From contig NC_092678.1 in assembly GCF_964355755.1 (NCBI RefSeq), positions 15,030,371 through 15,094,370 of the forward strand: a stretch of DNA of 64,000 bases. Direction: 5' to 3'. The position numbers and the translations under genes are program-made. This DNA is from Antedon mediterranea (Eukaryota; Animalia; Echinodermata). The notes below the pieces were generated by a model. It was not told where the DNA came from. It was given only the letters and a program-made list of their open reading frames with translations, and did not search any database. This document shows, piece after piece, positions 12,601 through 64,000 of the stretch. Each line of letters opens with the position of its first letter. Position 1 is the first letter of the stretch.

Positions 12601-12879
12601 AAATTAAATCAAGACAGACTACCACCAACAAATGGCTCAACTATACAGCACTCTCATCAGCAAGTTATTACATGGAAGGTCTTGGATACAAATGCTATAA
12701 ACCCGATGGAAAAGGCTGGAGGATTCATGACAATCACCTCCAATCATGACAGACAAATGATATTGCACCTCAATCTTTACTGAAACCAATATGCTATAAC
12801 TGCAAAGGAGGAAACCTATGCAGCACTCTCACGATGCAAGGTGCATCAGTAACAGCACCAAATAAGGTAACTTATAAGA

Positions 12880-14234: not shown

Positions 14235-14339
14235 AATGGATACACACCGATAACTATTTATCTGGAGCATGATGATGTTAAATTAGAGATATTGTACTGT
14301 CTGATAACCAATGGTGAATCACCAACATTACCAAAAGAG
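14235..14339 (+). CDS. Ankyrin exon A1 (35 aa, phase 0-0)
   Basis: cacag|NGYTPITIYLEHDDVKLEILYCLITNGESPTLPKE|gtaatt. Confidence 0.7.
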
Positions 14340-17300
14340 GTAATTTGACAAAAATTTAAATTGCAATAGTATGGCATACTGGTAATAGTACGCTTAATAA
14401 TAATTATTATGTTTTGCTTCGTTTTTTACTTTCAAACGTAAGAAGGTATTGTACTATATGTTAATTATTATAAACATGATGCAACTTCTCTTGGTATAAA
14501 TAATACATTTTAGCGACTTTCAATTAATTTGATTTAAAAATATTTATTTATTAAAAATATAACATTTTTTATTTTTTTAGGAAGGAATCAATGCTCTACA
14601 TATACATCTAAGTGATAGATATGTTAAACCTACGTTAGAAATAGTGACTAATCTCATTAATCTTGGTGTATCTCCAACATTACAGAATAAGGTAAAGTAC
14701 ATAAGAGTGGGCATATATTCCCGTGATCTAACATTGTGTAATTATCGGGTGGGACTCAAACACACATCAGATCACGAGTATGGTGTTGTTCATAACTCTA
14801 TACCTCCATCAGAGTGGTTACAGCAAGCAAATACAGTTGGAACCCACTAACGTTCGTGGTACCGAGATTAAATCTCTAAATGGGGAATTAAAAAATATAT
14901 TTTTTTAATTATCCGCATCCTTTGTTTAATTTAATTTGTTATTGTATAAAATAAGTACGTGTGATTTATAATGAACTTGAGAGAAAAGTGCCTTACGTAC
15001 GTCTTCAATATTATGTAATAATATATCTTCATATCACATAGCATGAGGTAATAGGGATAGAGATAATTTATATACAAGATAAAAAAATAAATAAGATGGA
15101 AATAACACAGATCAATTAAAATATATTGACTTTACTTCTTGTTAGATATCATCTTTTTAAAGGAACATCACCTCTCCTAAGCGAACTTTTAATTAAATTA
15201 GTGACCACCACTTTTAAAGAACCACCGCCTCTTGTAAGCGTCCATCACTTTTAAAGGATCACCACACGTAAGAAAGGTGGTTTCTTACGATGTATGTGTC
15301 ACATAATAGTTTAAAGGACATTGGAAACCATAATCAATTCAAATATACACTTAAACACATCTTCTGCATTGCAACTTATGATTTAACTAAGATATGGTTG
15401 TTCATTAAGATGGTTGGTGTATGTTGTTTTTTTTATGTCGGGAGTCCTTATGGCAACAAGCTCTAGACCTTATAGAGTTATCATCTTGCTCTCATCCTGT
15501 CATTTTATTATATGTATTTGTAATACAGTATTGATGAATGAGCAACAAATATAAAACAAACCAACGTTCTGCCATTCCTTATAATTGTATGAGTAAAAAG
15601 TATGAGTATTCCTATATCTGAAGTGTTTGTGAACACAATATGTCTTATAATATTCATATTGCATCAGCCACAAATAACAACAATCAATCATGTTATCAGT
15701 TGTGTCTAACAATAAGAATAAGAATCCTTATAGTTTATGTTTATGATTTATTCACAGAATGGATACACACCGATAAATATTTATCTGGAGCGTGATGATG
15801 TTAAATTAGAGATATTGTACTGTCTGATAACCAATGGTGAATCACCAACTTTACCAAAGGTAATTTGAAAAAAAATTTAAATTACAATAGAATAGCATAC
15901 TGGTAATTGTATGCTTAATGATAATTATTATTTTCGATTTATTTTTACCTTCAAACGTAAGAAGGTATTGTACTGTTAATTATTATTAACATGATGCAAC
16001 TTCTCTTGGTATAAATAAAACATTTTAGCGACTTTCGATTAATTTGATTTAAAAATATTTATTTATTAAAAATATAACATTTTATATTTTTTTAGGAAGG
16101 AAGCAATGCTCTACATATACATCTAAGTGGTAGATATGTTAAACCTACGTTAAGAATAGTGACTACTCTCATTAAACTTTGTGTATCTCCAACATTACAG
16201 AATAAGGTAAAGTACATAAGAGTGGGCATGTATTCCCGTGATCTAACATTGTGTAATTATCGGGTGGCGCTCAAACACACCTCAGATCACGAGTATGGTG
16301 TTGTTCATAACTCTATACCTACACAAGAGTGGTTACAGCAATCAAATACAGTTGGACACCACTAACGTTCGTGGTACCGAGATTAAATCTCTAAATGGGG
16401 AATTAAAAAATATATTTTTTTAATTATCCGCATCCTTTGTTTAATTTAATTTTTTATTGTATAAAATAAGTACGTATGATTTATAATGAACTTGAGAGAA
16501 AAGTGCCCTACGTAAGTAAAGTAGTAAAGTCGAAACCTAAGCTAATGCTAACGGTCTTGGTGCCCATCTCCATTTCCTTAGAGTTTGGGCCAGGCACCAC
16601 TAAGTGTTTATGTATGCGGGGGTACGCCACTCCTCCCGCACAAACGAGTCTGATTTACCTTCCCAGTACTTTTAACATACCGGTACCCATTTATATCAAC
16701 TGGGTGGGGAGGAACAATGTGGATAAAGAATCTTGCTCAAGGACTCAACACCGCAGTGACCGAGCCTGGCTTGAACCGGCAACATATTGATTGCAAGTAC
16801 AATGCTCAAACCACTGCACCACAGTGCTCCGCTAAGTGCTGTCTTACGTACGTCTTCCTTATTATGTAATATTACATCTTCATATCACATAGCATACGGC
16901 AATAGGGATAGAGATAATATATTGAATGAATTATCAATTTAACTATTTTTTATGTGGACATGTCATTATAAAATGGTTGAATTTAGAATGATGACTGGAA
17001 GCAATGTTCACATTAAGCTGTATGTATAAACTGCACGATTATGATTTCTTTTGTCAGTAAGATTGCAAATTGATATAATTCGGTCTACGTTCAGAGCATA
17101 AGCACCAGTAAAATCTTTTATTTTAATTTATTTGTGTATTATTTATCATTGCATAACTAAAATGATTTTCTGCAATAACCTGTATGTATAATTTCTTTAT
17201 ACACTGTAAAAACGGCGTTTAGATTCTAAACGCATAGCTTGTACCCACTTTTTCCACACGTTTAGCTCGATACATGTTTAGCTTTTCTATGCGTTTAGAT

Positions 17301-26300: not shown

Positions 26301-29300
26301 CCACGTTGTTTTTAAAGTGTAGGACGGAAACACCCCGCTTCATGAATACTTGCGTTCAAATAAACCTACCTTAGAAATAGTAGACTATCTTAGGAAACAA
26401 GGTGCTTCAATAACAGCACAAAATAAGGTACAGTAATATAGGGTTACAGATAAGTTATTATGATTACACCTTTAACGTACGTATGATCTGCAACGGAACA
26501 ATATCTTATCCACTTATTTTATATCATTACGATTGATTGAAGTTATTTAGAATTACTTGTTGCAATAATTATTTAGTAGAAAGTAAACAAGATCCTACCG
26601 TTATTGTAAGATTGGTATATCGACTATGTTTTATGTGGACATGTCATTATAAAAGAGCTGAAATTAGAATCATGACAGAAAGCAATGTTCACGTTAACCT
26701 GTATGCATAACCTACACGATTATGATTTCCTTTATTATTCTGTAAAATTACAATATAAGAGACAATTGATATAATTCGGTCTACGTTCACAGGATATGCA
26801 TAAGAAAAACGTTTTATTTAATTTTCTTTGTAGGTATTGTTTATCATTATCTAACTATAATTATTTGCTGCAATACACTGTTTGTATAAACTTCATGATT
26901 ATAATTTCTTGAAAGGACGGAAACACCCCGCTGCATGAATACATGCGTTCAAATGAACCTATCTTAGAAGTAGTAGACTATCTCACGAAGCAAGGTGCAT
27001 CCGTAACAGCACTAAATAAGGTAATAATGGGCTAGAGATCATTTCAAAATAAGGGAATGCATAGACAATTGATATACTTCGGTCTACGTTCACAACATAT
27101 GCACCAGCAAACATTTTATTTCAATTTTTGTGTGTATTATTATCATTACCTAACTATAATTATTTCCTTCAATACACTGTTTGTATAAACTTCATGATTA
27201 TAATTTCTCTATAGGACGGAAACACCCCGCTGCATGAATACATGCGTTCAAATGAACCTACCTTAGAAGTAGTAGACTATCTCACGAAGCAAGGGGCATC
27301 CGTAACAGCACTAAATAAGGTAATTATATGGCTACAGATAAGTTATATGATTACACCCAACGTCGGCGAAATTATGTTTATTTATCTATTTTTGATCTCA
27401 TTTAAAAATGTAATGTTTTTGTGTGATGTCACTTACAAGAATGGAATCAAAATAATCAATAAGGATACGAATGAATTATGACTGGAAGAACACGCCGCAG
27501 AATGTTCAAACGTTTCTATTCCAGTACGAATACCACTTTCAATTACAACCTAACTATCTCATATTGCATCTTGCATAACACTCAACATCTCCTTACCACA
27601 ATACTAATTTTCGAATAGATTCCAATATATTCATGGTATGTGCAACTGTTATTTTTTACTTTTAATAATAAACGTTGTCATAATATTTTGTTTTCTCTAT
27701 AGGACGGAAACACCCCGCTGCATGAATACATGCGTTCAAATAAACCTACTTTGGAAGTAGTAAACTATCTCAGGAAACAAGGTGCTTCAATAACAGCACA
27801 AAATAAGGTGATATAAGTCTAGAAATAATTTATATGATTACACCTATAACGTACGTATGGTCTGCGCCGCAAATATATTTTATCCACTTTATTTCATATC
27901 ATAATTATTACAACTAGATGGTACGCTCGCTTCGCTCGCGTACCATCTAGGTCGTGCCCACAGATGGTTCTCGAATACATAATAATTTCAGCGTTAAAAA
28001 ACTGGCGATTTCAAATGTACGTACCGCAGGACAATAATACATGTCGTTTACAGGAACGAATAAATAGACACTGTGATTTATGTACTGAACTAAAATTAGC
28101 ACCCTGGGAATTACTTCCGAAAGAGAAACTTGTCACAAAATGAGACCAATTGTTTAAGTCAAATTTAAACAAACTTAATTTGTGTTTTGTATGTAACATT
28201 AGGGTTGAGGGATGGGAAAGAGGATGGGTGCAAAGAGGAACAATTTTTAAATATATTCTTTATCCATGTAGTAACGAAATATTAATTGTTTTCATGTTTT
28301 ACAAATAATATAACACTAAACACCGTAAAACATTGCGATGTAATACTTTGTTGAAACTATCACCGTCCTAGTCGATTGAAATAGTATAGTACATGTAACG
28401 ATACATCACTACGACGTGTATAATATGTTTATATAATGTAAAACAATTTGTGAAAACCACCCCTATTCGTGGCAAATCATAAATTCGAGTAATAAATATT
28501 AAATTATCTAACTCAACTTAATGATAGGCCTAATGGGTTTCAATTGTTTCTTAGAGCCAATTCATACTTAAGTTGGTTCCTAACCCTACCCACCAAAGTT
28601 GTTTTGCGTTTAGGGCATGTGATGCACCGTAGGCCTATCTTCTACTGGCTTTACAACGCTACTCATGCCAGTGAGGGAAGGGTGATGCTGTCATGTGGGT
28701 GGTTTAACTGCAATAATAAAGATTTGTACATAATATACGGCGACTTAAAACGCTAGCTCATTATCCGTTAACAAATATCTATATCCAACCTCTGCAGCAC
28801 AGATTGAAAAAAAAATGGATCGAATTTCTGTTATGAGTATACAGTACTTGCCTTTACGACGCCTGAGGGAATAGACACTTGTGGAACAGAGATTGGAATG
28901 TTCCATTCATTTCAAATCAATACATTTGCATAAACGTATATTAAATCTATCAAAATATTATTTTTTTAAGAAAATCGGCCTGTCTTCAACATTATGATAC
29001 TGTACTCGAGCTGTTCAACCGGTTTTCAGCTATTAAAAACAATTATCGTAGGAGGAGATAGGAAAATGCGAAGCCTCCTCGCATTTTTGTGGCGGGTATT
29101 TTTCAAGATGGACATCCATTAGACAGTGTATACCACGATCGGAAAACACCCCTATTTGGGGCAAATTGTTTAACCTAAATTCGTTTTAATCGTCAATAAC
29201 TAATTATCTAACTTAATTTAATTAGTAAACAGGGTTACATCAGGCGGTTAAAATTAGTACCGAAAGTACGAACCAACTTTATATACCATCAAGTAAAAAT

Positions 29301-32300
29301 TCTAAAAGTAAGGCGCGATTTACCGAATTTTGCCCTTACGTAAATTTATATATAGATTGATTGAGTTATTTAGAATGACTTGCTGCAATAATTATTGAGT
29401 AGTAATTAAACAAGATCCTACAATTATTGTGAGATTGGTATATTGAGCAATGAAATTATTAATGGTTTAAATAGTTTTATGTGGACATGTCATTATAGAT
29501 TTGTTGAATTTAGAATAATGACAAAAAACAATGTTCACATTAACCTAAACTACACAATTATGATTTATTTTTTCTTTTCTTGGATTTTTCTTTACCTTTC
29601 ATTAACATTTCAAAATTAAGGAATGCACAGAAAATTTATATAATTCAGTCTTCGTCCACAACATAGGCACCAGCAAAACCTTTTATTTCAATATATTTGT
29701 GTATTATTTATCATAATCTAACTATAACTATTTGCTACAATAACCTGTTTGTATAAACTCCATGATCATAATTTCTTTATAGGACTGAAACACCCCACAG
29801 CATGAACAGTCATTTGAATTATAGTTGTTTTGTTTTTTCAAAAACACATAATCCAAATTATAGCAAATTGACTACGTCGCCCATGTGCCATGCATGTACA
29901 CTATATACTAGTACAAAAATGCCTTTCATTAAATGTTACTTTAAACTTAATTGGAAATACTGTTAAAAACAAAATAAATTTGTTAACATTAATTTTAAAT
30001 ACAATAACTTTATTGGGTGAATTAGTTCCCTTTGAAGAGACGTAGTTTATTATTGCCTGAGTTATAACCAGATTGAGGAAGCAGTTATTTTGTATGGAAT
30101 GGATTTTTTACTATTTAAATTAAATAGTATATAGTGTATGGTAATGATAGTTAATTATTATCGGGCTTATCATATCTTTTTTACTTTTTTTAAGTCAAAA
30201 AAGGCGTACAATTAGTTTGGTAAATTATGTGTATTTATCTGTTTTTACCCCATTTAAAAATGTAATGTTTTGGTGTGATGTAACTTACAACAATGGCATC
30301 AAAATATTTAATAATGATACGAATGAATTATGACAGGAAGAACACGCCGCGGAATTTTCAAACGTTTCTATTCCAGTACGAATACTACTTATAACTAGAA
30401 AGTCACTCCAAAAGTGCATACATCCGCCTACTGTAAAATTCTCCTCCTCGTCGTCGTCAAAGCAAACTCTTGATCAGAGCGTGGCTTCTCTAACAGCATT
30501 CTGAAACCGTCTCCTGTCCTCTGTCATCCTACTTGCTTGCTCCATAGAGCCAAACACATCTGTTATATTATTTTCCCATTTGCATCTTGGTCCTCCTCTT
30601 CTTCTCTTCCCTGGAATTTAAGCCTCCAACACTCTCTTCTCCATTCCATCTTGCCGCTTAATGTTGCCAAAATTCTCCTACATAAGATTTCTCCGGGAAA
30701 AAAAATATATTTTTATATTTGTGTGTGTCTTAATGCTGTTTGTGATTTAGGCTAATTTCACTAAAAACATGTGTATGCGCGTTTAGTGTAATGGTTATGT
30801 AACACGCGTTTCAATTAACAATAGCTTCAGTTGACTAACAATAGAACAGCAACGCGAAAATCAAACGAGTGAATTTGAAAACAAATTGGTTTCTTAAACT
30901 ACTGGCATCAACAGGTGTACATTAAATCAAATTATGTTTTAAAATTACAAATCACAAAAAAAACCATTGCGTCTTGTACAAAAATGAAGTTTGTACAATT
31001 TCAGTTTACTTGTTACTTTATTTATATTAAAATTTTGTACTTTCTTTTAACACTAGAAGGTCTGAAAAGTATATTAAAATGTGGTCCAGAATTACGACCA
31101 TGGTCCCAAATGGTTCCAATATAATGGAATGGTCCTTGACCACATATATATCTGTACATTTATTTTGGTAAAGATCTTGTTACTTTTTACTTTTTGAGTA
31201 GTCCTGTTAACAAACAAACGCGATCGATTACATATACCTCCTTGGCGGAGGTAAATTACAACCTAACTATCTCATACTATTGCATCTTGCAAAAAACTCA
31301 ACTTCTCCTTAACACAATACAGTACTAATTTTTGAATAATTTCCAATAATATGGTACTGATGTTTTTTACGTTTAATAATCCTTTTATAATACACTGGCC
31401 TCAAATGTTTATAATTCTATCTTATTTAGAAACAAATGTAAGTAAACTTACCAATTCGATCATTATCAAACAATTTGAAAACATTCGAAAGCACATACAT
31501 TTGTCTTGGCTATACTAAAAGTAGCTTCCCAGATGACTACATCATCATGGGAATCACTCCAGAATCATCAACTTTAACCAGAATTGCGAAAATAACACAT
31601 CTGACGTGTATGATGCATAGAGTGGGCTGAAATTGTTTAGTACGCGAATGACCTACATATTTAATTTACTTTTATGTTTATAGGAAGGAAAAACAGCAGT
31701 ATCTATTTTAGAAGAAAATACGCAAATAGAACAAACGAAACAAATGATGATTTTAGAGTATTTTGACAGTAAGTTAAAAATATTATATTAAATTATTAGA
31801 ACTCGTCACTTTGACGAGTTCGAGTTATCCGTGGACACGCCACATCCACATACGTTAAACAATATAAACGTCGACAAATATTATGCCATCCTATGACATG
31901 AATTATGTTATATGTTTAGAGTGTTGAATGGTACCTATATCATTAAGGTATTATAACACTATTTACAAAATACACTGTATATGTTATATACAGTGTAGCA
32001 TATATGAAAGTTTTAACATGATTGCGTCATCAAACAACATGAAATACGTAGATAGCAATTTTTGAAGGAAATTATCATAGCAAAAGCATAACAACGTGTT
32101 GAAGAAAGTTGGATACGTAGAATATTGAAGCGCACTCTTTTAAATGTCACGAACTATGACGCAAAATATGAAAATACGACTTTTATAATTCAACCATATG
32201 ACCATATGGCCATATGATGACGTCACACTATCCGATGGACATAATTTGTACATGAATTCGTATCTACAATTCAACTGCTTCCAGAAAAACTTTTGATCAT

Positions 32301-35300
32301 GAGGAGTTATAACATATTGCAATTTATTGGAATGTTGAAAATAAATGACCAAAGTTATTCCCGCTTTTGCACATGCTGACGTCATCCCAATTTTTAAAAT
32401 GGTAAAAGATGCGAAAGATAATTGATTGACCTACATAATATACAATTATGGGGGGAAATGGAATACGGATAAGTGGAGATGCGCTCTTTTAAATGTGATG
32501 AGCTATGGCAAAAGTGGGTTGCCCCCACAAAAGAGAGAAAAAAAAGCTATGACGAAAGAGACAAACATTCTATATTTTATATTCGAGTGGCCATACGATG
32601 ACGTCACAATGTCATGTTAGCCATATTGATACATTATTCGATATCTAAAACTTATCAACTTCCAGAATATGTAATTTGTTTAGAATCTAGGGCTGTTTAA
32701 AAAAAAGCATAATTTTGACACATTTTTTAACTTTTTCATCAAAAACGCGCGCAAATTGTCCAATTCGACGTGCTCGTATGACGTGATTTTAAGTCGAATT
32801 TTTTTTTAAGTTGGTAAAATTACTAGAAAAGGCTGGAAAAACATAAATCACACGAAAAAAGATGTTTTTAGGGAACACATTTGGACGCACGTGGAAATTT
32901 TAGACATGCCTAAAATTACATGAAACGCGTAGAAATATGATTAGAAATTGATTTTTTGCATTTCAAATTTGTAAACGCGTGTACGCTCGTAACTTTTTGT
33001 GGAAAATGCCATTTTTAACTAAGTAAACTAAATTAAAGTTGATTAAACTTTAAAGCGAAATGTTCTCGATATTAGCAATACACATTTGAATTTTAAAAAC
33101 AAATGTAATTCATACATTACATTTTACATATAACCATGAATGCGAAAATCGAAATAATACCTGTATGTTATGCGTATTTTTAATTATTTAAAATCAGAAC
33201 TGCTAGTTCCTCCAGAAATATTTGCCATGGGTAAAGAGGCTATTAAGATATATAAAGATGAATTGAAAGATGGTAAAATTGCAGTTGTGAATTCAAGATG
33301 TATGTTTCTTGGGAAGGAAGGCGCTGGTAAGACAAGCTGCGTAAAGTCCATGCTTAGAGAGAGGTAAAAAAAAATACAATTGGTACAAATATGTGTTAAC
33401 ATAAGCTAATATTATTAGGCCTAATCAATTATTTCAACGTAAATGCATACGGGTAATATGTTGACTATTGGTTGCCTCTCTTGGATTTGTATAATCTAAA
33501 TCTTTTTAAAATTGATTTGTATCAGCTAGTTTGATAATTTCACTTTGTTAAACTTAAATGCTGGATGTAATGGATTAAAAATATTTAAGGAATTTTGTTT
33601 CAACTTCAACGTACATGTTTACAATAGATTCAACCCCAAAGAACCATCGACAGATGGTATAGTTACAGCTACCGTGTTTAAAGCAACTGGAGAGAGTAAA
33701 TGGAAGAATATTAAAGTTGAAAACGGTAAAGATAATTTGATTACCAAAACTGTAAATGTTTGTGTTACTTTCTTTATAATCTATATCTATATTACTTTAA
33801 CATTGATAAACTCTGTATCAGGAATAGACACCGCGTTGTGTGAAGGCTTAAATGACTGACATCACATAGTAATAGGCATGATATATGTTAAAATTAACTC
33901 CGTCTTTCTGATAAACTTTAAACAACATCTTTGCATACAATCTTCATTTTTTACCAATTAGTTTATTTGTACAGATTCTGAGCTAACCAAGAAAATGCGT
34001 GAAAATGCATTAGCAAAAAAAGTTGACAAAGAGTTAAAACAGGGTATGTACAGCAACAATAATGGAAGCTTGTTAACATTTGAATGTATTCACCTTTCAT
34101 TTATCAATTATGATAAACGAAACTGTAGATTAATGATTGGATATTAAGGAATAAAACCTAGACGATAGTATAAAAATGGTGAACTTTAACAGTTTTATTT
34201 AGGATTACCAAAAGGTAAAAAAAACCACATGATTAATATCAATTTAAAATCATGACATTAAAAAAACGTGACATTAAAATTAAAAAACAAGACATAAAAA
34301 AAAAATAGAAATGAAAAGTACTGGCAATAGTAAATCATAGGATAGTATTTAAAAAAAACTTGACATAATATAAAGAGGGTAAAATAGATTCACACTGATG
34401 GGTAATGTTTCTCGAAACATGTATGTAGGTGTCTACAACCAAATATGATACCTCCTCCCCCCCCCCCAAACAAAAATGTCTATCTAATTAACATTTAATG
34501 AAAAGAAGCATTCCTGAAAAACTGGACAGCGATCAAATTCTTTTTGTTTACATGTGTTTTTGTTTATCCTGCAGTAGATAGCAATGAAAACCGGAGCCTC
34601 TGGAACAAATTCGAAGATTTTATAAGAAGTAAAATAGGAAGTGATGATTCAGAGAATATTCCAAATGAAATAACTAGCATATGGGACTACGCTGGTCAAT
34701 TGGACTACTACATAACGCATAGGGTGTGCTTATCAATATGTTAATTATTAATATAAGTAGTATTATTAAAGTATGTAAATAGGATGTACATTGCATTTGA
34801 CATTATCCCTAAAATTAATAGGCAGGCGTAATATCGATATTACCGTTACCGTAATTGTATATTCCATACAAACGTATTAAATTGAAAAATTATTTGCGGT
34901 GATGGCTATCTATATTAACATTTTCTGCGGTAACGTAAACATCCCCTTATAGTTTCAGTATGAATAATTCTTCATTATTATATTATATCGTGTGCCAACA
35001 CAAGCTTAATGACAAACACATGTACATTTTATGACATCTTTTTAACTATTTAACAATGCTGTTATAATATTGCGTTACGTAAATCTTGCTGTCCGTATCT
35101 TTCACAACGTACTTGCGTTTTTTGCACTGCAATAAAACGAATATAGCTAGCATTATCTTTTTAACATTACATAAGATAACATTTACCAATCAACCATTTA
35201 TATATTTATCATTAATACATTTGAGGTATATTCTAATTATTATTTTGGCAATTGGAGCATTTTTCATTTAATTGTTGTAAACATAATCGGACCGTCCATA

Positions 35301-38300
35301 GGTGCCAAATAGTTCATAGACCACCATGCACATACCATAAAAAAGATTCTGTTTTAGTAAACATTTCAAATTAAAAGTGAATTTGAAACAACCTACATGT
35401 GTATAGCGTTAGTATTATTACCCACAAGTTGTCCTCCATACAGGTAGAGAATGCTCCAGCCGCCAAAATGATGTTCCAAAAAGTGTTATATACATCAATT
35501 ACAATGTGTTTTGTTTTCAGTTTTTCCTCACAAATACAGCATCGTACTGCATTGCGTTTAGTGCTTTGGATAAATTAGACGAACTAGCTAAAGGACGAGA
35601 TCCAGCATTGGTAAGTTCACCAAGTACTGTACGTAATATTATGCTCATTTTATCAAAATCTAATATTAGAATATTGTTTATAATTGACGTTGACTATATA
35701 AAATAATACAGTATAATTTTATCCTTTTAAAATCTATATTACATTTCATTTTAGGGTCCGTTAGGAATGACTAATTTGGACATAATTCTGTTCTGGGTAA
35801 GGTCAGTATATGAACATACTGTGGTACAACATGCTTCAGGAAACACCATTTCAATTGATGGCAAAGTGATAAAGTCGCCTCCCATCAGTTTGGTTGCTAC
35901 TCATATAGACAAATTGCCAGGGACAAAATCAGAAAAGCTGAAAGAGGTAATAGCCACAATAAATTAATGAAATATAAAGATTTATGAATATATATTGATT
36001 ACTTCGGTCTATTAGTTTATAACAGTGTTTTACTGAAGTATTAGTATGTAAAAACATAATTAATATAATATGAAGAGCAATGGTCATAACGTTGAGTATT
36101 ACAAGATACACAGATAAGATGTAAAATAGAATAAATATTACACTATTATCAAAAATAATATTCCTGGTTTTTTTTTTTTGGGAGAATTACAAATGTTGTA
36201 TACATTTATGAGTTCTTAGAAATCATCAATATAACTGTTATGCGTTTGGATAACGGTTTCCCAAGAAAATGGAAATAATCAGCACACATCTATCACATAG
36301 TGGGTGAGTGGCCGAGCGGTTAAGACAGTGGAACCGTAATCACGTAGCCATAACATCGGCAGAGGTTCGAGGCTTACTCACTCCATGGTTCTGGTGGTAG
36401 AACGAGTCTTCTCGGATAAGGACTATAAACGTAGGTCCAGTGTACACAACTTGCTCGTGTGCACTTTAAAGAACCTAGTACATCTTTCGAGACGAGTAGG
36501 GGGTTACCCCGGTGTATTAGTACATCACAGCCACTGATCACCAACTGGGCCCTCTGGGAGACCAGTCTTTGACTGAAGAGGTAACCCAGTATAAATATAT
36601 ATTTCAATCAATCATCAATAGAAATAATAATATCAGAAGAGTGTAATTAAGTTTTGATCAGTGCCGGAATTAGTGCTTCAACAATCAACAACGTGTATAA
36701 TGATAAAGATAAGATAATTATATGTGTTTAAATGAATGTTTTGTGTTGCATGCTATGCACCAAAATGTCAACAGTTTTTTGACACTAAGATACGTCTGAA
36801 ACAATAATACACATACATCAAATATACATTGCAATCAACATCACATCCGAGAAAAATAGCCCTATAGAATATAAACTATGTAAGAGGGTGTAGGCGGGAG
36901 GGTAGATTGAATGTCTTTCTTACAAAATGTGGATGTCTGAACCTCGTGGCGACCAAATTGAAGAGGTTAAAATTACGCCCTCTCTAGTTTCAAAATAGAA
37001 TTGTGTTCGACTGACACTATTCTTATTTTTATTTGCCGAATTTGCTCTTATGCATCAAAGTGTTCTTAGACTCATCAACTTTATACATTTCAAGTTAAGC
37101 CAACAATGTTTTCTTTAGCTTGATTAGTGTGTGTCCGAAAATATTTCTTTCTCACAAAGTGTTTCAATTCAATCGTAGTAATGAACCAGTAGATGCTTAT
37201 TCAAAATGAATCGTGCACGATACCCCGTAACCGTATTATACTGTATTCGCACACCACAACCAAACGGTTGCATTAAGATAAATTTAGAGTTTATTTTAAT
37301 ATTGATACGACCGTGGTTGTAGGCATAGTGTGTATCAACATAGGACATACCACGTAATATCAGTTATCTAGCTTCGTATCATCTGGACAGCTATGCATAT
37401 ATTGTACATGTACAAACGATTTCCTAATTAAAAATAGTACTCCACTGAAACAACATTAAACATTGAATCTTATAAATTTGATAGACTTTAGCAATAGGCA
37501 TAGTTGGCAACATTAAACACACATTGCAATATATTAAATTAAAATTATTAATTTTTTATAAACGTAAACTGTAACAATATTAATACATGTACTGTCATTT
37601 TTTGAAGGTTCAGAATATGTATAAGACCATTTTTGCTAAAATGGAAAGAATGGAATATGCCGAGCATGTAGATCGTGAAATGTACATGGTCAACAACACG
37701 GTGAAATCACACGAAGGTATTGAGAAACTTAAGAGGAACGTTGTTAGATACATGAATGTAATAGGGGCGAAGGTCATTCCTCTAAAGTGGCTTGATTTTC
37801 AGGAAAGATTGCAAGAAATTGGAAAAACAAGACTATGCATTTCATTTAATGAGGTAAATTTTGATTGTGCTTTCGTAACAGCAGTACCCGTGTCGTGTTC
37901 ATACAATTGTCACGTGTATGTGTGCAAAGTATTTAATAGTAGTTAGGTACGCCTAATCTGAGCTTTACAAAAAAAAGCGATAATAATATCCAAAGATACT
38001 GGAATTGAGTGTCGGTTCTTTTAATCTTCCATTTCCCTCTTGTTGGTGAGTTCATTGTTATGCAAATCACGTGTTCGCGAGTGCTCGAGATAATCCGACT
38101 CAGAGACTGCGTCGCGATATCAAGTTTGTTAGATGGTAGTGTGTGGTAGTGGCTTACTAATACCTTCAGTATTTGAGAGATTCGCATTCCTCTAAAAGAA
38201 ACTGTAGAAAAAACAATGTAGTTTTAGTATGATATTTTTTGTGTGTTCTGATTTACAATTTATTTAAAAAAAGGGATTTTTAACAAGTGATTGTTTACTT

Positions 38301-41300
38301 ATGTTATAGGCTTCCAAATACACTCCTTAAATTGTATCACATTTGAAAACAAAATCTCTACCGCATTAATGATATTGTATCACATATCAAATTAATAGCT
38401 AAATATGTAGGTTTGTGTCTGCATGTATTAATTTTTAATTCAATTCTTTTAATTTGAAAAAAATACACTACGTATTCATTTTATTCAATATTATTATTAT
38501 ATATTTATGCCCAATTTCGTTTCGCTTAAGCTCATTGCCGATGTTGGTCACCGCGTCACCGAGCGTCATTATAACATACAATAATTATATTAACGTAAAA
38601 CATTTACGGCACCATAATAACACAATAAACTATTCATTGTTTTTGCGAAAAAAAGATTAAAATAATATACAAATAATATATCATACACTTACAATGCTGT
38701 TACCATTAAACAGATTATATGTGACAACCGAATATCCACGAATCATCATCATACATCCAAATACAGAAATTGATACAATATGAGCCGTATAAAAAAATAT
38801 AAACTAATTAACTAACTAATGCTTAAATCAATATAATCTAATGATTATGTTAAAATAAGCCTTGTGGGTTATTATTATTATTATTATAATATCACTAATT
38901 GTCTAACTTAATTTAATTAGTAAACAAGGTTACATCAGGTGGTTAAAATCAGTACCGAAAGTACGAACCAACTTTATATACCATCGAGTAAAAATTCTAA
39001 AAGTAAGGCGTGATTTACCGAATAATTTTGCCCTTACGTAAATGTATATATAGATAATGAATACAATTGTAGTTTGTTATCACAATGTTTATATTTACTT
39101 ATTCGTCAATATAATAGTAAAAAATCGTTTTATTAAAATGTACATTTGTATTAGGCTTCTCGAATTTGCACTGAATGTGGAATTGCCGAAGAAGCGATCA
39201 TCGTTGCCATAAGGTATATGAATGACATTGGAAAGATTATGTATTCCAATAAAGACGAGAAATTAAAGAAGACAGTAATAACTAATCTCCACACGATGAT
39301 ACAGATGTTGACAATTGTAATCACAGTATTTCCACCACATATTGAAGATGTAAGTAGACAAATCATAATAATTATCATAGTATTAGAATGAGAAAAAAAA
39401 TACATAAAATGTAATTTCTATTTTGCTGACAACTGGAGTCTTCAATTGTGAAGCAATTTGTAGTAATTATTGTGTATACTTACTTACTTATTTGTAAATA
39501 GAAGAAAATGAAGACGCTATGGAAAAGACTTGACGAAGAAGGTATTCTTGAGGAAAAGTTACTACGTTATTTGTGGACAACTCAAACCCAAGATCACTTC
39601 GAAATCTTCATTGAAGTGATGAGGGTGTTTCGGTTGCTCTATGAGAAGAAGAGTGTAAGTATTATGTGCATCAATTGATAATTATAAGATATTATTCTCT
39701 CTCATCAATATTGTGTAATCACCAATGTTTATAATAACAGGTACAAGAAGGTAACCGTGAATTCTTGGTTCCATGTCAGATGAAAGTTTATACAAATACT
39801 AGTCTAGAAGTGACAAAAGATGACATGCAGATGGTATCCATTTACCTGACTCCGAAAGACTTTCTTCCTGAGGCTGTGTACCACACTTTAGTTGTTGCAT
39901 TTCTTGAATTGATGACGGGTACAGATAGTGATGATTCACAAGTGTTCCGGAATCGTAGTGATTTTGAATTTAAAGATCACAAAGTCAGTTTAGGTGCCGT
40001 ACAAATTAAGCGTGAAAATGAAAAACCACACGCAATTAAGGTAGGACAATAAAAGTTAAATATCTCACTATTTTTGTAGCATATACATAAATACTAGATC
40101 AATAGAATATATGGTCTATTTATTACTTATGGTATCGTATATGATTGCATAACGCATCTTGCACTACGCACCTATACCTACCAACTTAACATATCTATTA
40201 TAGTAATGTTTACAATAACACAAATCAACCAACAAAATTATCAAATGATGTTTACACATCTTTAATAAAAAAAAAGAAAAGATTGATCAACAAACATTTA
40301 CTTTTTTTTATTACTTAATAGCTTCAAATATATCGTAGGAAAGAACAGAGTTATGACACAGAAGTTGGTGGCGCCAAACCAAAGAAACGACAACTGCAAC
40401 CGAGTGTTTGTATGAAGGTAATTATTATTATGCGTGACATAAACACTTCCAAACAAAATGTAGTGTAAATTAAATGATTTAATTTTTAATTATTTAATTA
40501 AATATTTTACACCCCTTCCATGTGTTCAGGTACTAAGTTACTTGAAGGATCAACTACAAACCGTATGCAACATATACGAAGGTAGTGGTTACAAACTACG
40601 TGTGGTATGCGATGCTTGTAATCCAAAGGAACATCACTTAGTTGACCTTGAAAAGTGTTTGAAGAATGATGTAGTTCCATGTGGAACCGATACGTCTATG
40701 AATACAGCTCATATCAAGCGATATTTTTCTAAAGGTAAGTTTTTTCTGTTTATGTTCCTTGTCAATTTAATTACTTCATCTTAATTAAATCTCCATCCTT
40801 TTCATCATCTTTATTCGTCATTACCAATGATATATATCAACAAATAACGTTTGGAACTTAAGAGTCTTAGCAAAAGAGTCTATAGCTATATTGCTATTGA
40901 TTACAACTTCTTCACTTGGGTCCGTGAGAGCTAATCTGTCACTAAACATTTGTAAGCAGTTAGATAATTGAAATAATAATACTAAATTTATTGAAATCCA
41001 ATATACAATACAAAATTACAATTAATTACTATACAATAATTATTCACACATTTTAAATTAATATTGGTAAATTGTCTTAACTAACTCTTAACTATGTAAT
41101 AAAACTAAGCAAAATTCAGCGATTTCTACAAAACAAATGTTGAGTGGACTGTTAGGAATGAACCTCTTATATTTTTAAGAAAATAAAAGACACATTGCTT
41201 CTAATTTTCTTATTTTTGGGTAAAATCACTGATTAACAATAAATCGAGAGATGAAAAAATCCTCTGCCATCCAATCTGGCTCTTGAAAATAGAGTCTGCT

Positions 41301-44105
41301 CCGGTTGATTACTATATAGTCCAGTATTAAACAGCACACGCATTTTACTTGTCTTGCTGCCAATGTAAATGCCATGTTTGTTTCTGAACATGACTTGATA
41401 CGGCGTAATATCATTTTACTACAATAATTCATGTTAATTTTATTATTATTTATTTATTATTATATGTTAATTTATTGAAACATACAGTAATTTATATTAT
41501 TATTTTTTCTCGTTTCTATTACAAATAATACTAACCATGTATCTATAATATTTGTGGGCACATATAATATACTAGCAGTAGTGTAAACTAGCTTGGAAAG
41601 TTTTAATTTCATTATTTTACCAAAATACATTTCTTTTTTCCCAAGCTTTTAACACCTTTTTTAATTTGTTGATCTTCTCACCTCAATTATTTTTGTGGCA
41701 TTTCTTGTTATTGTAATCAAACAAAGTACCAAATAATGTACAGGGTCATCAACTCACTGTATTCTAAATGATTCACAAAACATAATGTTTTGAAGATCCA
41801 CAATCATTTGATTTTCATTTTGGTTGAAAGTATGTATATGTTTCAAGAAATTAAAAACGAGGAATAAAATTAACATGAATTACTGTAGTAAAATGATATT
41901 ACGCCGTATCATGTCATGTTCAGAAACATGAATGGAATTTACATTTGCGACGACCCAGGGCACTTAAAAAGTAACGGAAAAAATGTAATGGAAGGGTAGT
42001 AGTAGACAAGTAAATGCAGGTTCTGTTTATTGTCCCTTGTCATATAGGCCTACTGGACAATATAGTAATCAACAGGAGCAGATACTCTATTAGAAGAGCC
42101 AGATTGCGTTATACAAGCACCAATTTATGTTAATCAGTGATTTTAAGGAACATAAACAAACAAAAAAACCTTACAAAACCAGTCTACTTCATTTAAATAA
42201 GTTTCAATATTTTTTTTTATCTCCAACCGAAAGTATCTTATCGTCAGCTAACTTAGCAATTTAATCTCCTGTAGTTTCTATCCAAATTTAGATTTAACTA
42301 AACATAATAATAGCTTGCCTGCTAGTAATAACAACTGTCTTAGTAAAGGTTTATGAGAGATAATCTGAAACAAACATTTTGTGTTTTTAAAAATTAAAAA
42401 TAATATGTATAATTAATATTATGCTAAGCCAAAAAATAAATCTGAAATATTAGCTATACACGCGTTGATAATAGTAAAGGTGTAGTCGAATGAAAGAAAT
42501 ACAAGTAATTGCTAAATGATGGTATTATTACATAATTTACCGACCCGTTTTATATTCATGAAATTTGCTAATATACCTAAAATCTAGATGTTTGTAATGG
42601 ACCATATGTATATCATATTATCATTTTTGTTTTTTTTTTTCTTTCTACGTTTGTGTTAATTTTACTATTGGAGTTCTATATGTTTTAAAGCATATTTTGG
42701 AAAATGGCGTTAATTTCTAAATTGTTGTGTGTTAATGTTTACGTTTTTCGTGCGTTGATTTTACGAGTTGCGTTGTGGCCCTACATACTCTCACCTTATA
42801 AACATACATATTGTTTTACTAATAGAACTCTACATATTATAAAGCTTATTTTGTTAGAAAACTGTTTTACGAATTGAGTTTTTTTCAATTTTTTTTACTT
42901 TTGCATTGATTTTACGATTTATAAATAAATATTATGTATTGTTTTTCTGATATTGATTTTTGACAATATGAATTGTATTTGTTACAGGTGTTGTTGGAGC
43001 ATCAAGTTCATATCCAGGTATGTTAAGTTCTGTCTACACTATCAAACTTTATGTGACAAAAAAAAAGTGATGTGCCCATATATGGACCATATTTAAGCAT
43101 ATCGCTACCCTCTTTCGGAACATCACACTTTTTTTGTCAAACTAGTTTGATAGTGTAGACAGAGGTTTAGGTTTGTTGGTTGTAGTGGTTTAGATTAGTG
43201 GATATTAATTACAATGCACTACAGTCGAACTCACTGTCGCTCATTGATAGAACAGAGAACTGTAAATATGAGTGAAGTGAATTTTACGTTTAACAATTGA
43301 TAACATTCGGTGCCATGTTTAAAACATTTATATAAAGTAACCTCTCATTTGTATACTTGTTAGGCCATGGAAACGAAATTGATGGTTATGATAATGAAAG
43401 AATGATCTAGAGTCACATAAAAGTATGCACAATAATAAATGTTCACTATAAAGTGTACAGTGTACAAGGATACTGAGTGGTGTTTCATTACTTTATATTA
43501 TAATCACAATCTTATAGCAAATGACAACAGTGATTATAATCATGTTAACCTATTATGCTGAATTGATTACATATTGTAAAATTGCTTTATTTAACCATGT
43601 AGATCTTTCGGAAGATGAGTTTAAACAGTTAATTACAGAATTTGCACAATGGTATGATGAACGTGGACTCCTTAACAGACTGAAAGTTCTGTTCAAAGAA
43701 ATGCTAGGCGACTTTGAAGCGTTGAATAGAGTTACCAGTACATTCGACCTGTTAGCACTGTTAACTGATTCTGGGCTGTTGAGTCGACAAAAAATGTCTG
43801 TACTGTATGATACAATACAGATAACTAAACAAAATGGCTTTGAGGACATGGTTAAAAATAAGCTTCCTTTTTTCCAAAGTTTTAAGACCCAAACTACATT
43901 GTCATTTTCACCACATACCATAAATCTGTTTAATCTGGGAAAAAGTCTCAGTGACTTAGATATGAAAACTCTTGATGGACGTTTCAACTTCCCTGTTCTT
44001 AAGAAGTATGACGACAGGTGGAGTTTGATTTTGGATTTGGAATCACGAGGGTTGCTAAGTGAAGATAAACTTGAATCAGTTGAGAAGGACGTTTTGAAAA
44101 GATGA
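14235..44105 (+). CDS. Gene 1: ankyrin repeat - Roc - COR - tandem DED ROCO protein (spliced, 5' end not seen)
   Basis: GT-AG exons in consistent phase. ANK exons: 14235-14339, 14581-14691, 15758-15859, 16096-16206, 26323-26427, 26916-27020, 27215-27319, 27703-27807. Then 31684-31768, 33198-33363, 33628-33725, 33975-34043, 34575-34723, 35521-35610, 35755-35946, 37608-37853, 39155-39349, 39502-39654, 39741-40040, 40322-40417, 40530-40734, 42988-43017, 43603-44105; these last 15 exons total 2577 nt and stay open to TGA. Confidence 0.85.
14581..14691 (+). CDS. Ankyrin exon B1 (37 aa, phase 0-0)
   Basis: tttttag|EGINALHIHLSDRYVKPTLEIVTNLINLGVSPTLQNK|gtaaag. Confidence 0.75.
15758..15859 (+). CDS. 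Ankyrin exon A2 (34 aa, phase 0-0)
   Basis: cacag|NGYTPINIYLERDDVKLEILYCLITNGESPTLPK|gtaatt. Confidence 0.7.
16096..16206 (+). CDS. Ankyrin exon B2 (37 aa, phase 0-0)
   Basis: tttag|EGSNALHIHLSGRYVKPTLRIVTTLIKLCVSPTLQNK|gtaaag. Confidence 0.7.
16514..16830 (-). mobile_element. tRNA-derived CORE-like SINE
   Basis: Reverse strand reads GGAGCACTGTGGTGCAGTGG...GGTTCAAGCC...CCTTGAGCAAG...ATAAATGGGTACC; absent from the paralogous site at ~14990; imperfect TSD aagtgc..tacgta. Confidence 0.8.
17216..17445. repeat. 76-bp subterminal tandem repeat x3
   Basis: Unit starts at 17216, 17292 and 17368 (cgtttagatt.taaa.gcatagcttgtaccc...). Confidence 0.9.
19151..20587 (-). mobile_element. Non-autonomous Helitron, copy 1
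   Basis: Reverse strand A|TC...hairpin GATGGTACGCGAGCGAAGCGAGCGTACCATC-TAG|T; no TSD; highly similar to copies at 27914 and 58416. Confidence 0.9.
20806..24711. mobile_element. Non-autonomous TIR element with TTAA TSD (Kolobok-like)
   Basis: TTAA|GAGCCATTGTCTGTAA...TTACAGACAATGGCTC|TTAA; imperfect inverted homology extends ~500 bp inward. Confidence 0.8.
22443..22973. mobile_element. pogo/Tigger-like MITE
   Basis: TA|CAG...GGGAGGTTCAACTG|TA with repeated AAGCGGCCAC motifs; left TIR partly deleted. Confidence 0.6.
26323..26427 (+). CDS. Ankyrin exon C1 (acceptor disrupted by transposon)
   Basis: DGNTPLHEYLRSNKPTLEIVDYLRKQGASITAQNK|gtacag; AG intact, but the native pyrimidine tract is displaced 9.1 kb upstream. 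Confidence 0.65.
26916..27020 (+). CDS. Ankyrin exon C2
   Basis: gaaag|DGNTPLHEYMRSNEPILEVVDYLTKQGASVTALNK|gtaata. Confidence 0.8.
27215..27319 (+). CDS. Ankyrin exon C3
   Basis: ctatag|DGNTPLHEYMRSNEPTLEVVDYLTKQGASVTALNK|gtaatt. Confidence 0.85.
27703..27807 (+). CDS. Ankyrin exon C4
   Basis: ctatag|DGNTPLHEYMRSNKPTLEVVNYLRKQGASITAQNK|gtgata. Confidence 0.85.
27914..29356 (-). mobile_element. Non-autonomous Helitron, copy 2
   Basis: TC/CTAG ends, A|T target; the paralogous intron at ~26530 is an empty site. Confidence 0.9.
29783..29806 (+). pseudogene. Truncated ankyrin pseudo-exon C5
   Basis: tttatag|GAC TGA AAC ACC CCA CAG CAT GAA: stop at codon 2, then homology breaks off. Confidence 0.8.
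30395..31253. mobile_element. Helentron-associated (HINE/DINE-like) element with nested RTE-like LINE 3' fragment (~30443-30680, minus)
   Basis: Absent from the paralogous intron at ~27540; terminal palindrome TACCTCCTTGGCGGAGGTA and a related CATACATCCGCC near the other end; nested PGKRRRGGPRCKWENNI...EDRRRF. Confidence 0.6.
31684..31768 (+). CDS. Ankyrin C-cap/linker exon of gene 1
   Basis: ttatag|EGKTAVSILEENTQIEQTKQMMILEYFD|gtaagt, phase 0-1. Confidence 0.8.
33198..37853 (+). CDS. Roc GTPase domain exons of gene 1 (running into the start of COR)
   Basis: PPEI..MG..AI..Y pre-Roc motif; G1 GKEGAGKTS; G2 PSTDGI; G3 WDYAGQ..YYITH; G4 LVATHIDK; then IPLKWL at the COR start. Confidence 0.92.
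36299..36615 (+). mobile_element. tRNA-derived SINE with Deu/Nin-like domain (intronic)
   Basis: A box TGGCCGAGCGG, B box GGTTCGAGGC; TCGGATAAGGACTATAAACGTAGGTCC...TTAAAGAACC...GAGTAGGGGG..CCCCGGTGT. Confidence 0.75.
38904..39054 (-). mobile_element. Helitron 5'-end fragment (same family)
   Basis: Matches 29207-29356 including the A|TC terminus. Confidence 0.85.
39155..40734 (+). CDS. COR and post-COR exons of gene 1
   Basis: AIRYMNDIGKIMY..TVITN, EEGILEEKLLRYLW, FLVPCQM, FLPEAVYHTLVV; ends in Cys/His-rich VCDAC..HHLVDL..C..PCG. Confidence 0.85.
41222..42145. mobile_element. MITE-like element with ~220-bp imperfect inverted repeats
   Basis: 41222-41445 is the inverse of ~41863-42145 (aaaatcactgattaac.../...gttaatcagtgatttt). 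Confidence 0.7.
42988..43017 (+). CDS. 30-nt linker micro-exon (phase 1-1)
   Basis: ttacag|(G)VVGASSSYP|gtatgt. Confidence 0.65.
43026..43166. mobile_element. 141-bp Harbinger/Tourist-type MITE
   Basis: TIR CTGTCTACACTATCAAACT, TTA TSD (43023-25, 43167-69). Confidence 0.8.
43603..44105 (+). CDS. Terminal exon of gene 1: two divergent death-effector-domain (DED)-like units
   Basis: FKQLITEFA...LKVLF...TFDLLALL..SGLLS...VLYDTI, then FSPH..NLFNLGKSLSDLDMKTL...WSLILDLESRGLLSE; DED-like helical pattern. Confidence 0.75.
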
Positions 44106-45889: not shown

Positions 45890-46903
45890 CTAAACTCTTG
45901 ACAAAGCGTCAGCTACAACATTGTCTTTTCCTCTGATATGATGAATTTCCAGATTCATTTCTTGAACTGCTAAACTCCATCTCAACAAGCGTTGATTCTT
46001 GTCCTTCATTCTTGCCAAGAAAGTTAATGGGTTGTGGTCAGTCCACACTACAATTGGAAACGGAGTAGATCCAAGATACACTTCAAAGTGCTTTAACGCT
46101 GACATCAAAGCTAATGTCTCCTTCTCAACAGTAGAATAACGTTTCTCATGCAGGTTGAATTTTCTGGAGTAGAAACACACAGGCTTGTCAACACCGTTCT
46201 CGTCTGTTTGCGCCAACACAGCACCAGAACCAACATCACTGGCATCAATCATTAACGAGAACTGTTTATCAAATTGTGGAGCCATCAACACCGGTTCGTT
46301 TGATAACATTGCTTTAACTTTAATGAACGCATTATTGCATTCCTCCAACCACACAAAGCTCGCATTCTTTTTCAGCAGATTCGTTAATGGAGCTACAAGC
46401 GTTGAGAAACTTCTGCAAAAACGTCGATAAAACCCAGCCATTCCCAAGAACCGCATTAACTCCTGCTTACTCTTTGAAACTGGGAAATCACAGACTGCCT
46501 TAATCTTAGCACTTAATGGTTTCACTTTTCCGCAACCAACTTTATGACCTAAAAACACAATTTCTGCACAGGAAAACTCGCTTTTCACCAAATTTACTGT
46601 CAACTTTGCAGCTGTCAACCTGTCAAACAATGCCTTAATTCTCTGCACATGTACAACCCATGTATCACTATAAACAACCAAATCGTCTATATAAGCTTCA
46701 CAGCCCTCCAACCCTGAACTTATACCATTAACCAATCTCTGGAACGTGGCTGGTGCATTCTTTAAACCGAAAGGCATGACCTTATACTGATAAAGACCCA
46801 TAGGAGTTACAAAAGCTGACACTTCTTTCGCACGCTCGGTTAAAGGAATTTGCCAGTAACCCTTTAGAAGATCAAATTTACTGACAAACTTAGCACTACC
46901 CAC
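45890..46903 (-). pseudogene. Reverse transcriptase / RNase H part of pol
   Basis: DLLKGYWQ, MPFGLKNAPATFQR, YIDD, FLGH, DASDVG, EKE, TDH, NVVADALSR. Confidence 0.95.
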
Positions 46904-49047: not shown

Positions 49048-49077
49048 ACTTGCTCCAGCAGAAGACTCGTTTGAAAA

Positions 49078-63870: not shown

Positions 63871-64000
63871 GTAATGTACATACAATCATAGTGGTATTTA
63901 TGTAATTATTATGAAAACAGTATCTGTTCCAGCTAACATCTCTATTTTATTTATAATATGTAATTTATAATTAATATTGATTATTTTGAATTATTTATTG

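What the first reader, a model, noticed from the sequence alone, without database searches (positions are those of the whole stretch)
14235..44105. Kinase-less ROCO receptor: modular ankyrin sensor - Roc/COR switch - tandem DED effector
Seen: 15 exons from 31684 to 44105 splice into an uninterrupted 858-codon frame with Roc motifs G1-G4, COR and two DED-like units, preceded by up to 8 intact single-repeat ANK exons. Established: vertebrate ROCOs are LRRK1/2, MFHAS1 and DAPK1 (kinase-ANK-Roc-COR-death domain), and tandem DEDs recruit FADD/caspase-8. Inference: this is an NLR-like tripartite sensor-NTPase-death-fold receptor that uses a dimerising GTPase in place of NACHT/NB-ARC. I do not know of a characterised protein with this ANK-Roc-COR-DED-DED architecture.
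Basis: partly seen in the sequence, partly recalled or inferred. Interest (0 to 1): 0.9.

Follow-up and report, generated by a model that had tools for sequence, protein, structure and literature searches.

The report
Crinoid ankyrin-ROCO with swappable death tail
This feather-star gene is predicted to join one-repeat-per-exon ankyrin units, an LRRK2-type GTP switch and a caspase-8-like tandem death-effector tail; it belongs to an unstudied multi-copy family that likely acts as an intracellular immune sensor, and its tail appears to have been swapped in from a cassette also carried by NLR receptors and a caspase.

Summary
Fifteen AG/GT exons (31684-44105) give 858 codons with intact Roc motifs, COR and a last exon that folds like the caspase-8/cFLIP tandem DED; eight open single-repeat ankyrin exons lie upstream. 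Two RefSeq proteins of the crinoid Antedon mediterranea match the locus. RefSeq cuts this copy into pieces, but at least three paralogues are annotated whole as ANK-Roc-COR-tandem DED, and Anneissia has relatives. New here: the DED exon is a mobile cassette. This copy's Roc-COR is 81% identical to a sister gene whose tail is only 34% identical (one clade rejected, p-AU about 1e-117). The same cassette family sits on nine NACHT proteins, DED-only proteins and a caspase. Corrections: no start exon lies in the window, no RNA was available, the second DED lacks its last helix, no RxDL motif is present, and this copy's ankyrin exons are conserved rather than hypervariable. Kinase-less repeat-ROCO-death-fold proteins are already listed in surveys and were proposed as immune receptors in brown algae and bacteria; I found no paper on this architecture. 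Verdict: new variant of a known kind, probably an NLR-like sensor family; function and expression untested.

The parts
14235..14339 (+). Ankyrin exon A1 (divergent type, 35 codons, phase 0-0); membership in this transcript unproven
   Evidence: same type is joined to the core in sister model XP_071961256
14581..14691 (+). Ankyrin exon B1 (37 codons)
15758..15859 (+). Ankyrin exon A2 (34 codons); part of a 1.5-kb 93%-identical tandem duplication
16096..16206 (+). Ankyrin exon B2 (37 codons)
26323..26427 (+). Ankyrin exon C1 (35 codons)
26916..27020 (+). Ankyrin exon C2
27215..27319 (+). Ankyrin exon C3
   Evidence: Pfam Ank 25.4 bits, over cut-off
27703..27807 (+). Ankyrin exon C4
29783..29806 (+). 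Broken remnant of a C-type ankyrin exon (acceptor and first bases only)
31684..31768 (+). Core exon 1: capping ankyrin-like unit
33198..33363 (+). Core exon 2: Roc helix alpha0 and P-loop G1
33628..33725 (+). Core exon 3: Roc switch I (G2)
33975..34043 (+). Core exon 4: Roc insert
34575..34723 (+). Core exon 5: Roc switch II (G3); weak GTGTGC donor
35521..35610 (+). Core exon 6: Roc
35755..35946 (+). Core exon 7: Roc G4-type motif
37608..37853 (+). Core exon 8: end of Roc, start of COR-A
39155..39349 (+). Core exon 9: COR-A; tandem donors 4 nt apart, RefSeq uses the out-of-frame one
39502..39654 (+). Core exon 10: COR-A
39741..40040 (+). Core exon 11: COR-B; RefSeq XP_071959885 starts inside it
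40322..40417 (+). Core exon 12: COR-B
40530..40734 (+). Core exon 13: COR-B
42988..43017 (+). Core exon 14: 10-codon linker
43603..44105 (+). Core exon 15: tandem DED cassette (phase 1), complete DED plus DED lacking its last helix, stop codon
2340..2829 (+). Decayed older copies of the A and B ankyrin exons (frameshifts, stops)
12827..12870 (+). 3' half of a C-type ankyrin exon stranded upstream of A1

Best explanation
The locus is one tandem copy of a crinoid-expanded, kinase-less ROCO family whose protein is predicted to read ankyrin repeats - Roc GTPase - COR - tandem DED, and it likely works as an NLR-like intracellular sensor. Inferred mechanism: the ankyrin array binds a foreign or damaged-self protein; this shifts the Roc-COR nucleotide cycle and its monomer-dimer state; dimerisation brings two tandem-DED tails together and seeds a homotypic assembly with other proteins that carry the same crinoid DED cassette (DED-only adaptors, a DED-cassette caspase), giving caspase activation or immune signalling. 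Shown: exons, frame, motifs, fold of the tail, whole paralogues, presence of the cassette on NACHT proteins and a caspase, discordant trees of core and tail. Inferred: transcript, ligand, GTP cycle, partners, output. Both ends are modular: the sensor by single-repeat phase-0 exons, the effector by replacement of one phase-1 last exon.
For: Open 858-codon model with canonical sites (control). Whole annotated Antedon paralogues with Ank+Roc+COR+tail: XP_071961256 (1431 aa, same chromosome-size contig, same A/B/C repeat series), XP_071964198, XP_071964214; single-repeat versions XP_071943867 and XP_071944625; 59-60% identity over about 700 aa for the two on another contig. Anneissia japonica relatives. 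Roc-COR relatives hit Methanosarcina and Chlorobium Roco and LRRK2 structures (query paralogue P0175). Tail: AlphaFold2 pLDDT 90.8 with a 31-row alignment; all 26 Foldseek rows shown are caspase-8/cFLIP/viral FLIP tandem-DED entries, TM up to 0.72. Cassette on 9 NACHT proteins, a caspase (P0121, His and Cys motifs visible), HEPN, ZU5 and DED-only proteins; labels intermixed on the tree of 82 cassettes. Swap: Roc-COR sister P0178 81% identical (100/100) but tail 34%; tail groups with P0004 (63%) whose Roc-COR is 25%; AU test p 8e-118; P0008 and P0178 share the linker and diverge at the first residue of the last exon. Tandem clustering, decayed exons and fragments match a birth-and-death family. 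Across 39 family repeats the positions after TPLHxY are the most variable. Precedents: PMC3341825, PMC11378527, PMC8195603 (passages).
Against: No transcript evidence. No start exon in 1-26322, though the next gene's start exon is found by the same search. RefSeq breaks this copy in two and no identical protein was found for exons 1-6 or the ankyrin exons. This copy departs from 19 of 167 otherwise invariant columns against 11 for its sister, including D to N in the G5-like motif, shared with two near copies. Its four C repeats are under purifying selection (8 silent, 8 replacement, ratio 0.30, p 0.016), not diversifying; the B pair (0 silent, 7 replacement, p 0.15) is not significant. Pfam DED is under cut-off and hits only the first unit; no sequence hit to solved DEDs; no RxDL in 0 of 82, last helix missing. 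The caspase's cassette is only 38% identical and lies in another subclade; its species is unknown. P0178 is an automated model that starts with an unrelated-looking stretch, so it could be chimeric.
Confidence: 0.55

Rival explanations
1. The family is real, but this copy is a young, decaying or untranscribed duplicate: it has lost its start exon and keeps an open frame only because the duplication is recent.
For: No start exon in the window; broken ankyrin exons and transposon insertions around; near copies at 91-97% that RefSeq also annotates only as fragments; more departures at invariant columns than the sister. About half of Ectocarpus ROCO loci are disrupted (PMC3341825 passage).
Against: All 15 exons, 28 splice sites and G motifs intact; C repeats show purifying selection and are better kept than their flanks; the start exon may lie upstream of base 1.
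Confidence: 0.2
2. The protein is made but acts as a cFLIP-like brake or a non-immune scaffold (for example DAPK1-like control of cell death in development or regeneration): the truncated, RxDL-less tail would cap DED assemblies rather than seed them.
For: Second DED lacks its last helix in the whole subclade; no RxDL; many subclade members are DED-only proteins; cFLIP and viral FLIPs are among the fold hits; this copy's repeats are homogeneous.
Against: Rapid copy turnover, exon-level modularity and sharing of the cassette with NACHT proteins fit immune receptors better; the absence of RxDL is family-wide, caspase included.
Confidence: 0.15
3. The RefSeq split is right: separate short products (ANK-half Roc, Roc/COR piece, COR-B-DED adaptor) are made, not one receptor.
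For: XP_071959884 ends through the donor 4 nt downstream of exon 9; XP_071959885 starts in exon 11; sibling XP_071960530 reads through the exon 5 donor.
Against: The in-frame donor is a consensus GTAAGT and gives the same 18-residue span as 5 of 7 paralogues; the breaks cut through folded domains; paralogues are whole.
Confidence: 0.1

Closest known systems
Uncharacterised Antedon mediterranea RefSeq proteins XP_071961256.1, XP_071964198.1, XP_071964214.1, XP_071943867.1; Anneissia japonica XP_033098335.1, XP_033124957.1
   Same: ANK-Roc-COR core, 53-82% identical by region; tandem DED tail; no kinase.
   Different: They carry another subclade of the DED cassette (30-37% identical to this one); named 'uncharacterized', no study found.
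Brown algal LRR-ROCO candidate immune receptors (Zambounis 2012 PMC3341825; Teng 2024 PMC11378527; abstracts and passages read)
   Same: One repeat per exon in front of Roc-COR; clusters; birth and death; proposed as immune receptors.
   Different: LRR not ankyrin; no death-fold effector in the passages seen; diversifying selection shown there, not in this copy.
Bacterial LRR-AP-GTPase-COR-variable effector systems and the shared-adaptor (EAD) principle (Kaur 2021 PMC8195603, Kaur 2020 PMC7159879; passages read)
   Same: Repeat sensor, Roc-COR switch, exchangeable C-terminal effector; one adaptor domain shared by NTPase and effector proteins.
   Different: Prokaryotic; effectors TIR, caspase, GT4 and others; no metazoan ANK-Roc-COR-DED mentioned in the passages seen.
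Invertebrate ROCOs with death folds: Trichoplax (at least 17 genes with CARD, death, TPR, LRR; PMC4104024), Aplysia and anemone Roc-COR-TIR/Death (PMC9334734, PMC5094078); amphioxus ANK-Roc-COR-Death XP_078689064
   Same: Roc-COR plus repeats plus death-fold adaptor, often without kinase.
   Different: CARD, death or TIR, not tandem DED; no effector-exon swap described in the passages seen.
DAPK1 (kinase-ANK-Roc-COR-death domain; architecture recalled)
   Same: Order ANK-Roc-COR-death fold.
   Different: No kinase found here or in whole paralogues; tandem DED in place of one death domain; multi-copy.
Caspase-8 / cFLIP / MC159 tandem DED (PDB 8YM4, 4ZBW, 5L08, 2F1S)
   Same: Fold of the last exon, TM 0.5-0.7.
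   Different: 13-20% identity, C-terminal position, no RxDL, second DED one helix short.

Membership tests
ROCO (Roc-COR GTPases) | Roc G1-G4 motifs | tested here: met
   GKEGAGKTS, STDG, WDYAG, THID; conserved in paralogues; Pfam Roc over cut-off in near copies P0168, P0178
ROCO (Roc-COR GTPases) | COR directly after Roc | tested here: met
   COR-A 41.1 bits over cut-off 35.3 in the locus's own RefSeq piece; COR-B weak, E 0.015; paralogue hits solved Roco proteins
ROCO (Roc-COR GTPases) | GTP binding, hydrolysis and nucleotide-linked dimerisation | not testable with these tools
   needs purified protein; G5-like motif has D to N
Tandem DED (caspase-8/cFLIP type) | Two packed DED folds | tested here: met
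   pLDDT 90.8; Foldseek top hits caspase-8/cFLIP tandem DEDs
Tandem DED (caspase-8/cFLIP type) | Pfam DED over curated cut-off | tested here: inconclusive
   21.1 bits against 35.9, first unit only
Tandem DED (caspase-8/cFLIP type) | RxDL motif and complete last helix in both units (motif recalled) | tested here: not met
   0 of 82 cassettes with RxDL; this subclade ends 11-14 residues before other C-terminal cassettes
Tandem DED (caspase-8/cFLIP type) | Homotypic binding or filament formation | not testable with these tools
   needs experiment
NLR (STAND receptors) | NACHT or NB-ARC domain | tested here: not met
   central domain is Roc-COR
NLR (STAND receptors) | Repeat sensor + NTPase + death-fold effector in one chain | tested here: met
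   in reverse order; predicted here, annotated in paralogues; cassette family shared with NACHT proteins
NLR (STAND receptors) | Ligand-triggered oligomer that signals | not testable with these tools
   no ligand known
DAPK1 | N-terminal kinase and C-terminal death domain | tested here: not met
   no kinase Pfam hit in whole paralogues that begin with the family's start helix; tail is tandem DED; this copy's 5' end is not in hand
Brown-algal-type exon-shuffling ROCO receptors | One repeat per same-phase exon, clusters, decayed copies | tested here: met
Brown-algal-type exon-shuffling ROCO receptors | Diversifying selection on repeats | tested here: inconclusive
   C exons ratio 0.30 (purifying, p 0.016); B pair 0/7 (p 0.15); next gene's D exons 5/29, ratio 1.8 (p 0.14)
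Brown-algal-type exon-shuffling ROCO receptors | Alternative splicing of repeat exons | not testable with these tools
   no RNA run served

The most novel reading that the evidence does not exclude
Crinoids run a second, GTPase-based class of intracellular immune receptors alongside NLRs: ROCO and NACHT sensors plug into one caspase network through a shared, mobile tandem-DED cassette, and receptors are rewired by exon exchange at both ends (ankyrin exons change what is sensed, the last exon changes which pathway fires).
Probability: 0.35. Interest if true: 0.78.

Novelty: new variant of a known kind. Interest (0 to 1): 0.52.

Why it matters
It would give a kinase-free animal ROCO with a direct death-fold output, a simple system in which to ask what the Roc-COR monomer-dimer cycle of LRRK2-type proteins actually switches. 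It would also show an animal immune-receptor class built on a GTPase instead of a STAND ATPase, wired to the same adaptor cassette as NLRs, with a documented exchange of effector between sister genes.

Tried and rejected
Expression: no RNA holder listed; four runs laid on 26000-45000 cover introns like DNA and showed no splice joints among the rows printed; no evidence either way. Whole genome: none held, so no tBLASTn paralogue count; paralogues come from three word-limited protein searches (10 hits of 1548 candidates, 10 of 22, 14 of 205) and are a lower bound. Single-sequence fold of the tail was poor (pLDDT 48.5). Sequence searches of PDB with tail alignments found no DED (one search was dominated by LRR columns). 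Two-copy complex of the tail: no answer, score 0.00. VIA structural alignment and the protein atlas were busy and never answered. No second tail exon and no longer linker exon found in the window. Start-exon search with four paralogue N-termini found only 57906-58007, which belongs to the next gene. No tRNA. PMC6321704 (placozoan immunity) has no Roc/COR mention. Rejected: chance frame; DAPK1 orthologue; true NLR; hypervariable sensor in this copy.
Full report
Observation. The window is AT-rich animal DNA (32% GC). I placed the exons by eye, fixed the borders and spliced them in a script: 15 exons, 31684-44105, all AG/GT, 2577 nt, 858 codons and a stop. None of 20000 random chains of equal exon sizes was open. 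The G1-G4 motifs are present and match paralogues. A scan for open phase-0 ankyrin exons gave 8 upstream (14235-27807) and 4 downstream (60461-63330).

Source and annotation. Exon 15 and exon 8 match RefSeq proteins of the crinoid Antedon mediterranea at 100%, so I infer the window is from that species. RefSeq has two pieces here: XP_071959885 (320 aa, from inside exon 11 to the stop) and XP_071959884 (218 aa, exons 7-9, ended by a donor 4 nt downstream). The in-frame donor is GTAAGT and yields the same 18-residue span as 5 of 7 paralogues, so I prefer one gene. The 100% hit to exon 2, XP_071960530, is a sibling (91% over 193 aa) in which RefSeq joins C-type ankyrin repeats to Roc.

Family. 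Whole annotated ANK-Roc-COR-tail proteins: XP_071961256, XP_071964198, XP_071964214, with single-repeat versions XP_071943867 and XP_071944625, on three contigs. XP_071961256 carries the same A, B and C repeat types in the same order as this window, which supports joining all eight exons, with the caveat that it is an automated model. Anneissia japonica has partial relatives and amphioxus has a kinase-less ANK-Roc-COR-Death protein. A phmmer search with paralogue P0004 found 2847 representatives at E 0.001 and listed 150. I scanned 72 of the 150 with Pfam, chosen by length or presence of the tail, not at random. Roc-COR occurs with Death, CARD, TIR, HEPN, kinase, ZU5, LRR, ankyrin, Macro, TAZ/KIX and others.

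The tail. Pfam DED hits only the first unit, under cut-off. With a 31-row alignment AlphaFold2 gives pLDDT 90.8, and every Foldseek row shown is a caspase-8, cFLIP or viral FLIP tandem DED entry (best E 9.7e-4, TM up to 0.72). The fold claim stands. But none of 82 cassettes has RxDL (motif recalled), and this subclade stops 11-14 residues earlier than other C-terminal cassettes, losing the last helix of the second DED. Binding to canonical FADD or caspase-8 cannot be assumed.

A mobile cassette. A profile of the tail found 96 cassettes in 66 proteins; 82 went into the tree after dropping 13 under 60 bits and the locus's own duplicate. They sit on Roc-COR proteins (either end), on 9 NACHT proteins (two named as Antedon), on a caspase with two cassettes (P0121, species unknown), and on HEPN, ZU5, NHL and DED-only proteins; the labels are intermixed (22 changes, minimum 6). 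The nearest NACHT-borne cassette is 52% identical, the caspase's 38%. In 21 proteins with both parts, this copy's Roc-COR is sister to P0178 (81%, 100/100) while its tail groups with P0004 (63%, 100/99), whose Roc-COR is 25% identical; P0178's tail (34%) stays with the other ANK-ROCOs. Holding the two tails together is rejected (p-AU 8e-118, 18 rows, group named after seeing the first tree). P0008 and P0178 share a linker and part at the first residue of the phase-1 last exon. The simplest reading is replacement of the effector exon in this lineage.

The sensor. The ankyrin array is unstable: a 1.5-kb tandem duplication, decayed copies at 2340-2829, a half exon at 12827-12870 and a remnant at 29783. 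Across 39 family repeats the residues after TPLHxY vary most, though indels blur later columns; that this is the binding face is recalled knowledge. In this copy the four C repeats are conserved (8 silent, 8 replacement; ratio 0.30, p 0.016); the B pair (0 and 7) and the next gene's repeats (5 and 29) lean the other way without significance.

Doubts about this copy. No start exon lies in 1-26322, while the same search finds the next gene's at 57906-58007; it may lie before base 1. The copy differs at 19 of 167 otherwise invariant columns, its sister at 11; other paralogues differ at 3-7 of about 150 columns, a set not directly comparable. No RNA was available.

Mechanism. I commit to an NLR-like sensor (0.55): ankyrin binding shifts the Roc-COR cycle, dimerisation clusters the tails, and cassette-bearing adaptors and caspase are recruited. 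The review passages read describe GTP-bound monomers and GDP-bound dimers for Roco proteins (PMC6337361), so the dimer is more likely the post-hydrolysis state than the GTP state. Rivals: decaying copy (0.2), brake or non-immune scaffold (0.15), true split products (0.1).

What is known. Passages read: PMC3341825 and PMC11378527 (LRR-ROCO, one repeat per exon, candidate immune receptors); PMC8195603 and PMC7159879 (bacterial LRR-AP-GTPase-COR with at least 24 effector types; shared adaptors); PMC4104024 (Trichoplax, at least 17 ROCOs with CARD, death, TPR, LRR); PMC9334734 and PMC5094078 (Roc-COR with TIR or Death in Aplysia and anemones); PMC6321704 (no mention). No supplements were read; source-data files of PMC8195603 could list such architectures. 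Eight searches listed no paper on ANK-Roc-COR-DED or crinoid ROCOs; the library lacks most subscription journals. Earlier notes of this scan report similar ROCO-death-fold genes in other invertebrates (unchecked leads).

Verdict. Real gene structure, real uncharacterised family, new variant of a known kind. The added value is the shared, exchangeable tandem-DED cassette. Interest 0.52.

Noticed in passing
window 57791-64000 (+): Start of the next family member: ATG micro-exon 57791-57798 and start-helix exon 57920-58007 (read), four open ankyrin exons (60461, 61301, 61996, 63226) and two broken ones (about 62530, 63775). Its repeats show 29 replacement against 5 silent changes (ratio 1.8, p 0.14).
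   Followed up: partly
P0121: Caspase with two DED cassettes of this family; the second groups with NACHT-borne cassettes (support 99). Candidate downstream effector; species unknown.
   Followed up: partly
P0044 (XP_071945975.1), P0059, P0126: Roc-COR proteins fused to CBP-type TAZ, KIX or Creb-binding domains, one with a DED cassette; reminiscent of integrated decoy domains in plant NLRs (recalled analogy).
   Followed up: no
P0016 (XP_071947615.1): ANK-Roc-COR-Roc-COR with a hydrophobic C-terminus: two different Roc-COR subfamilies in one model.
   Followed up: no
window 45494-50854 (-): Interrupted LTR retrotransposon with 97% terminal repeats; SCAN/zinc-knuckle gag, then integrase before RT-RNase H, the order recalled for Gmr1-type elements.
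   Followed up: no
window 24720-25200: TAGGCCTA-rich stretch with a possible minus-strand splice donor near 25082, between the two ankyrin clusters; could mark another transcription unit.
   Followed up: no
window 432-839 (-), 3880-6684 (+): DDE transposase fragment and a LINE fragment with PHD and endonuclease domains inside the ankyrin array region.
   Followed up: no
window 52433-56137: Three diverged 500-1100 bp repeats upstream of the next gene's start exon.
   Followed up: no
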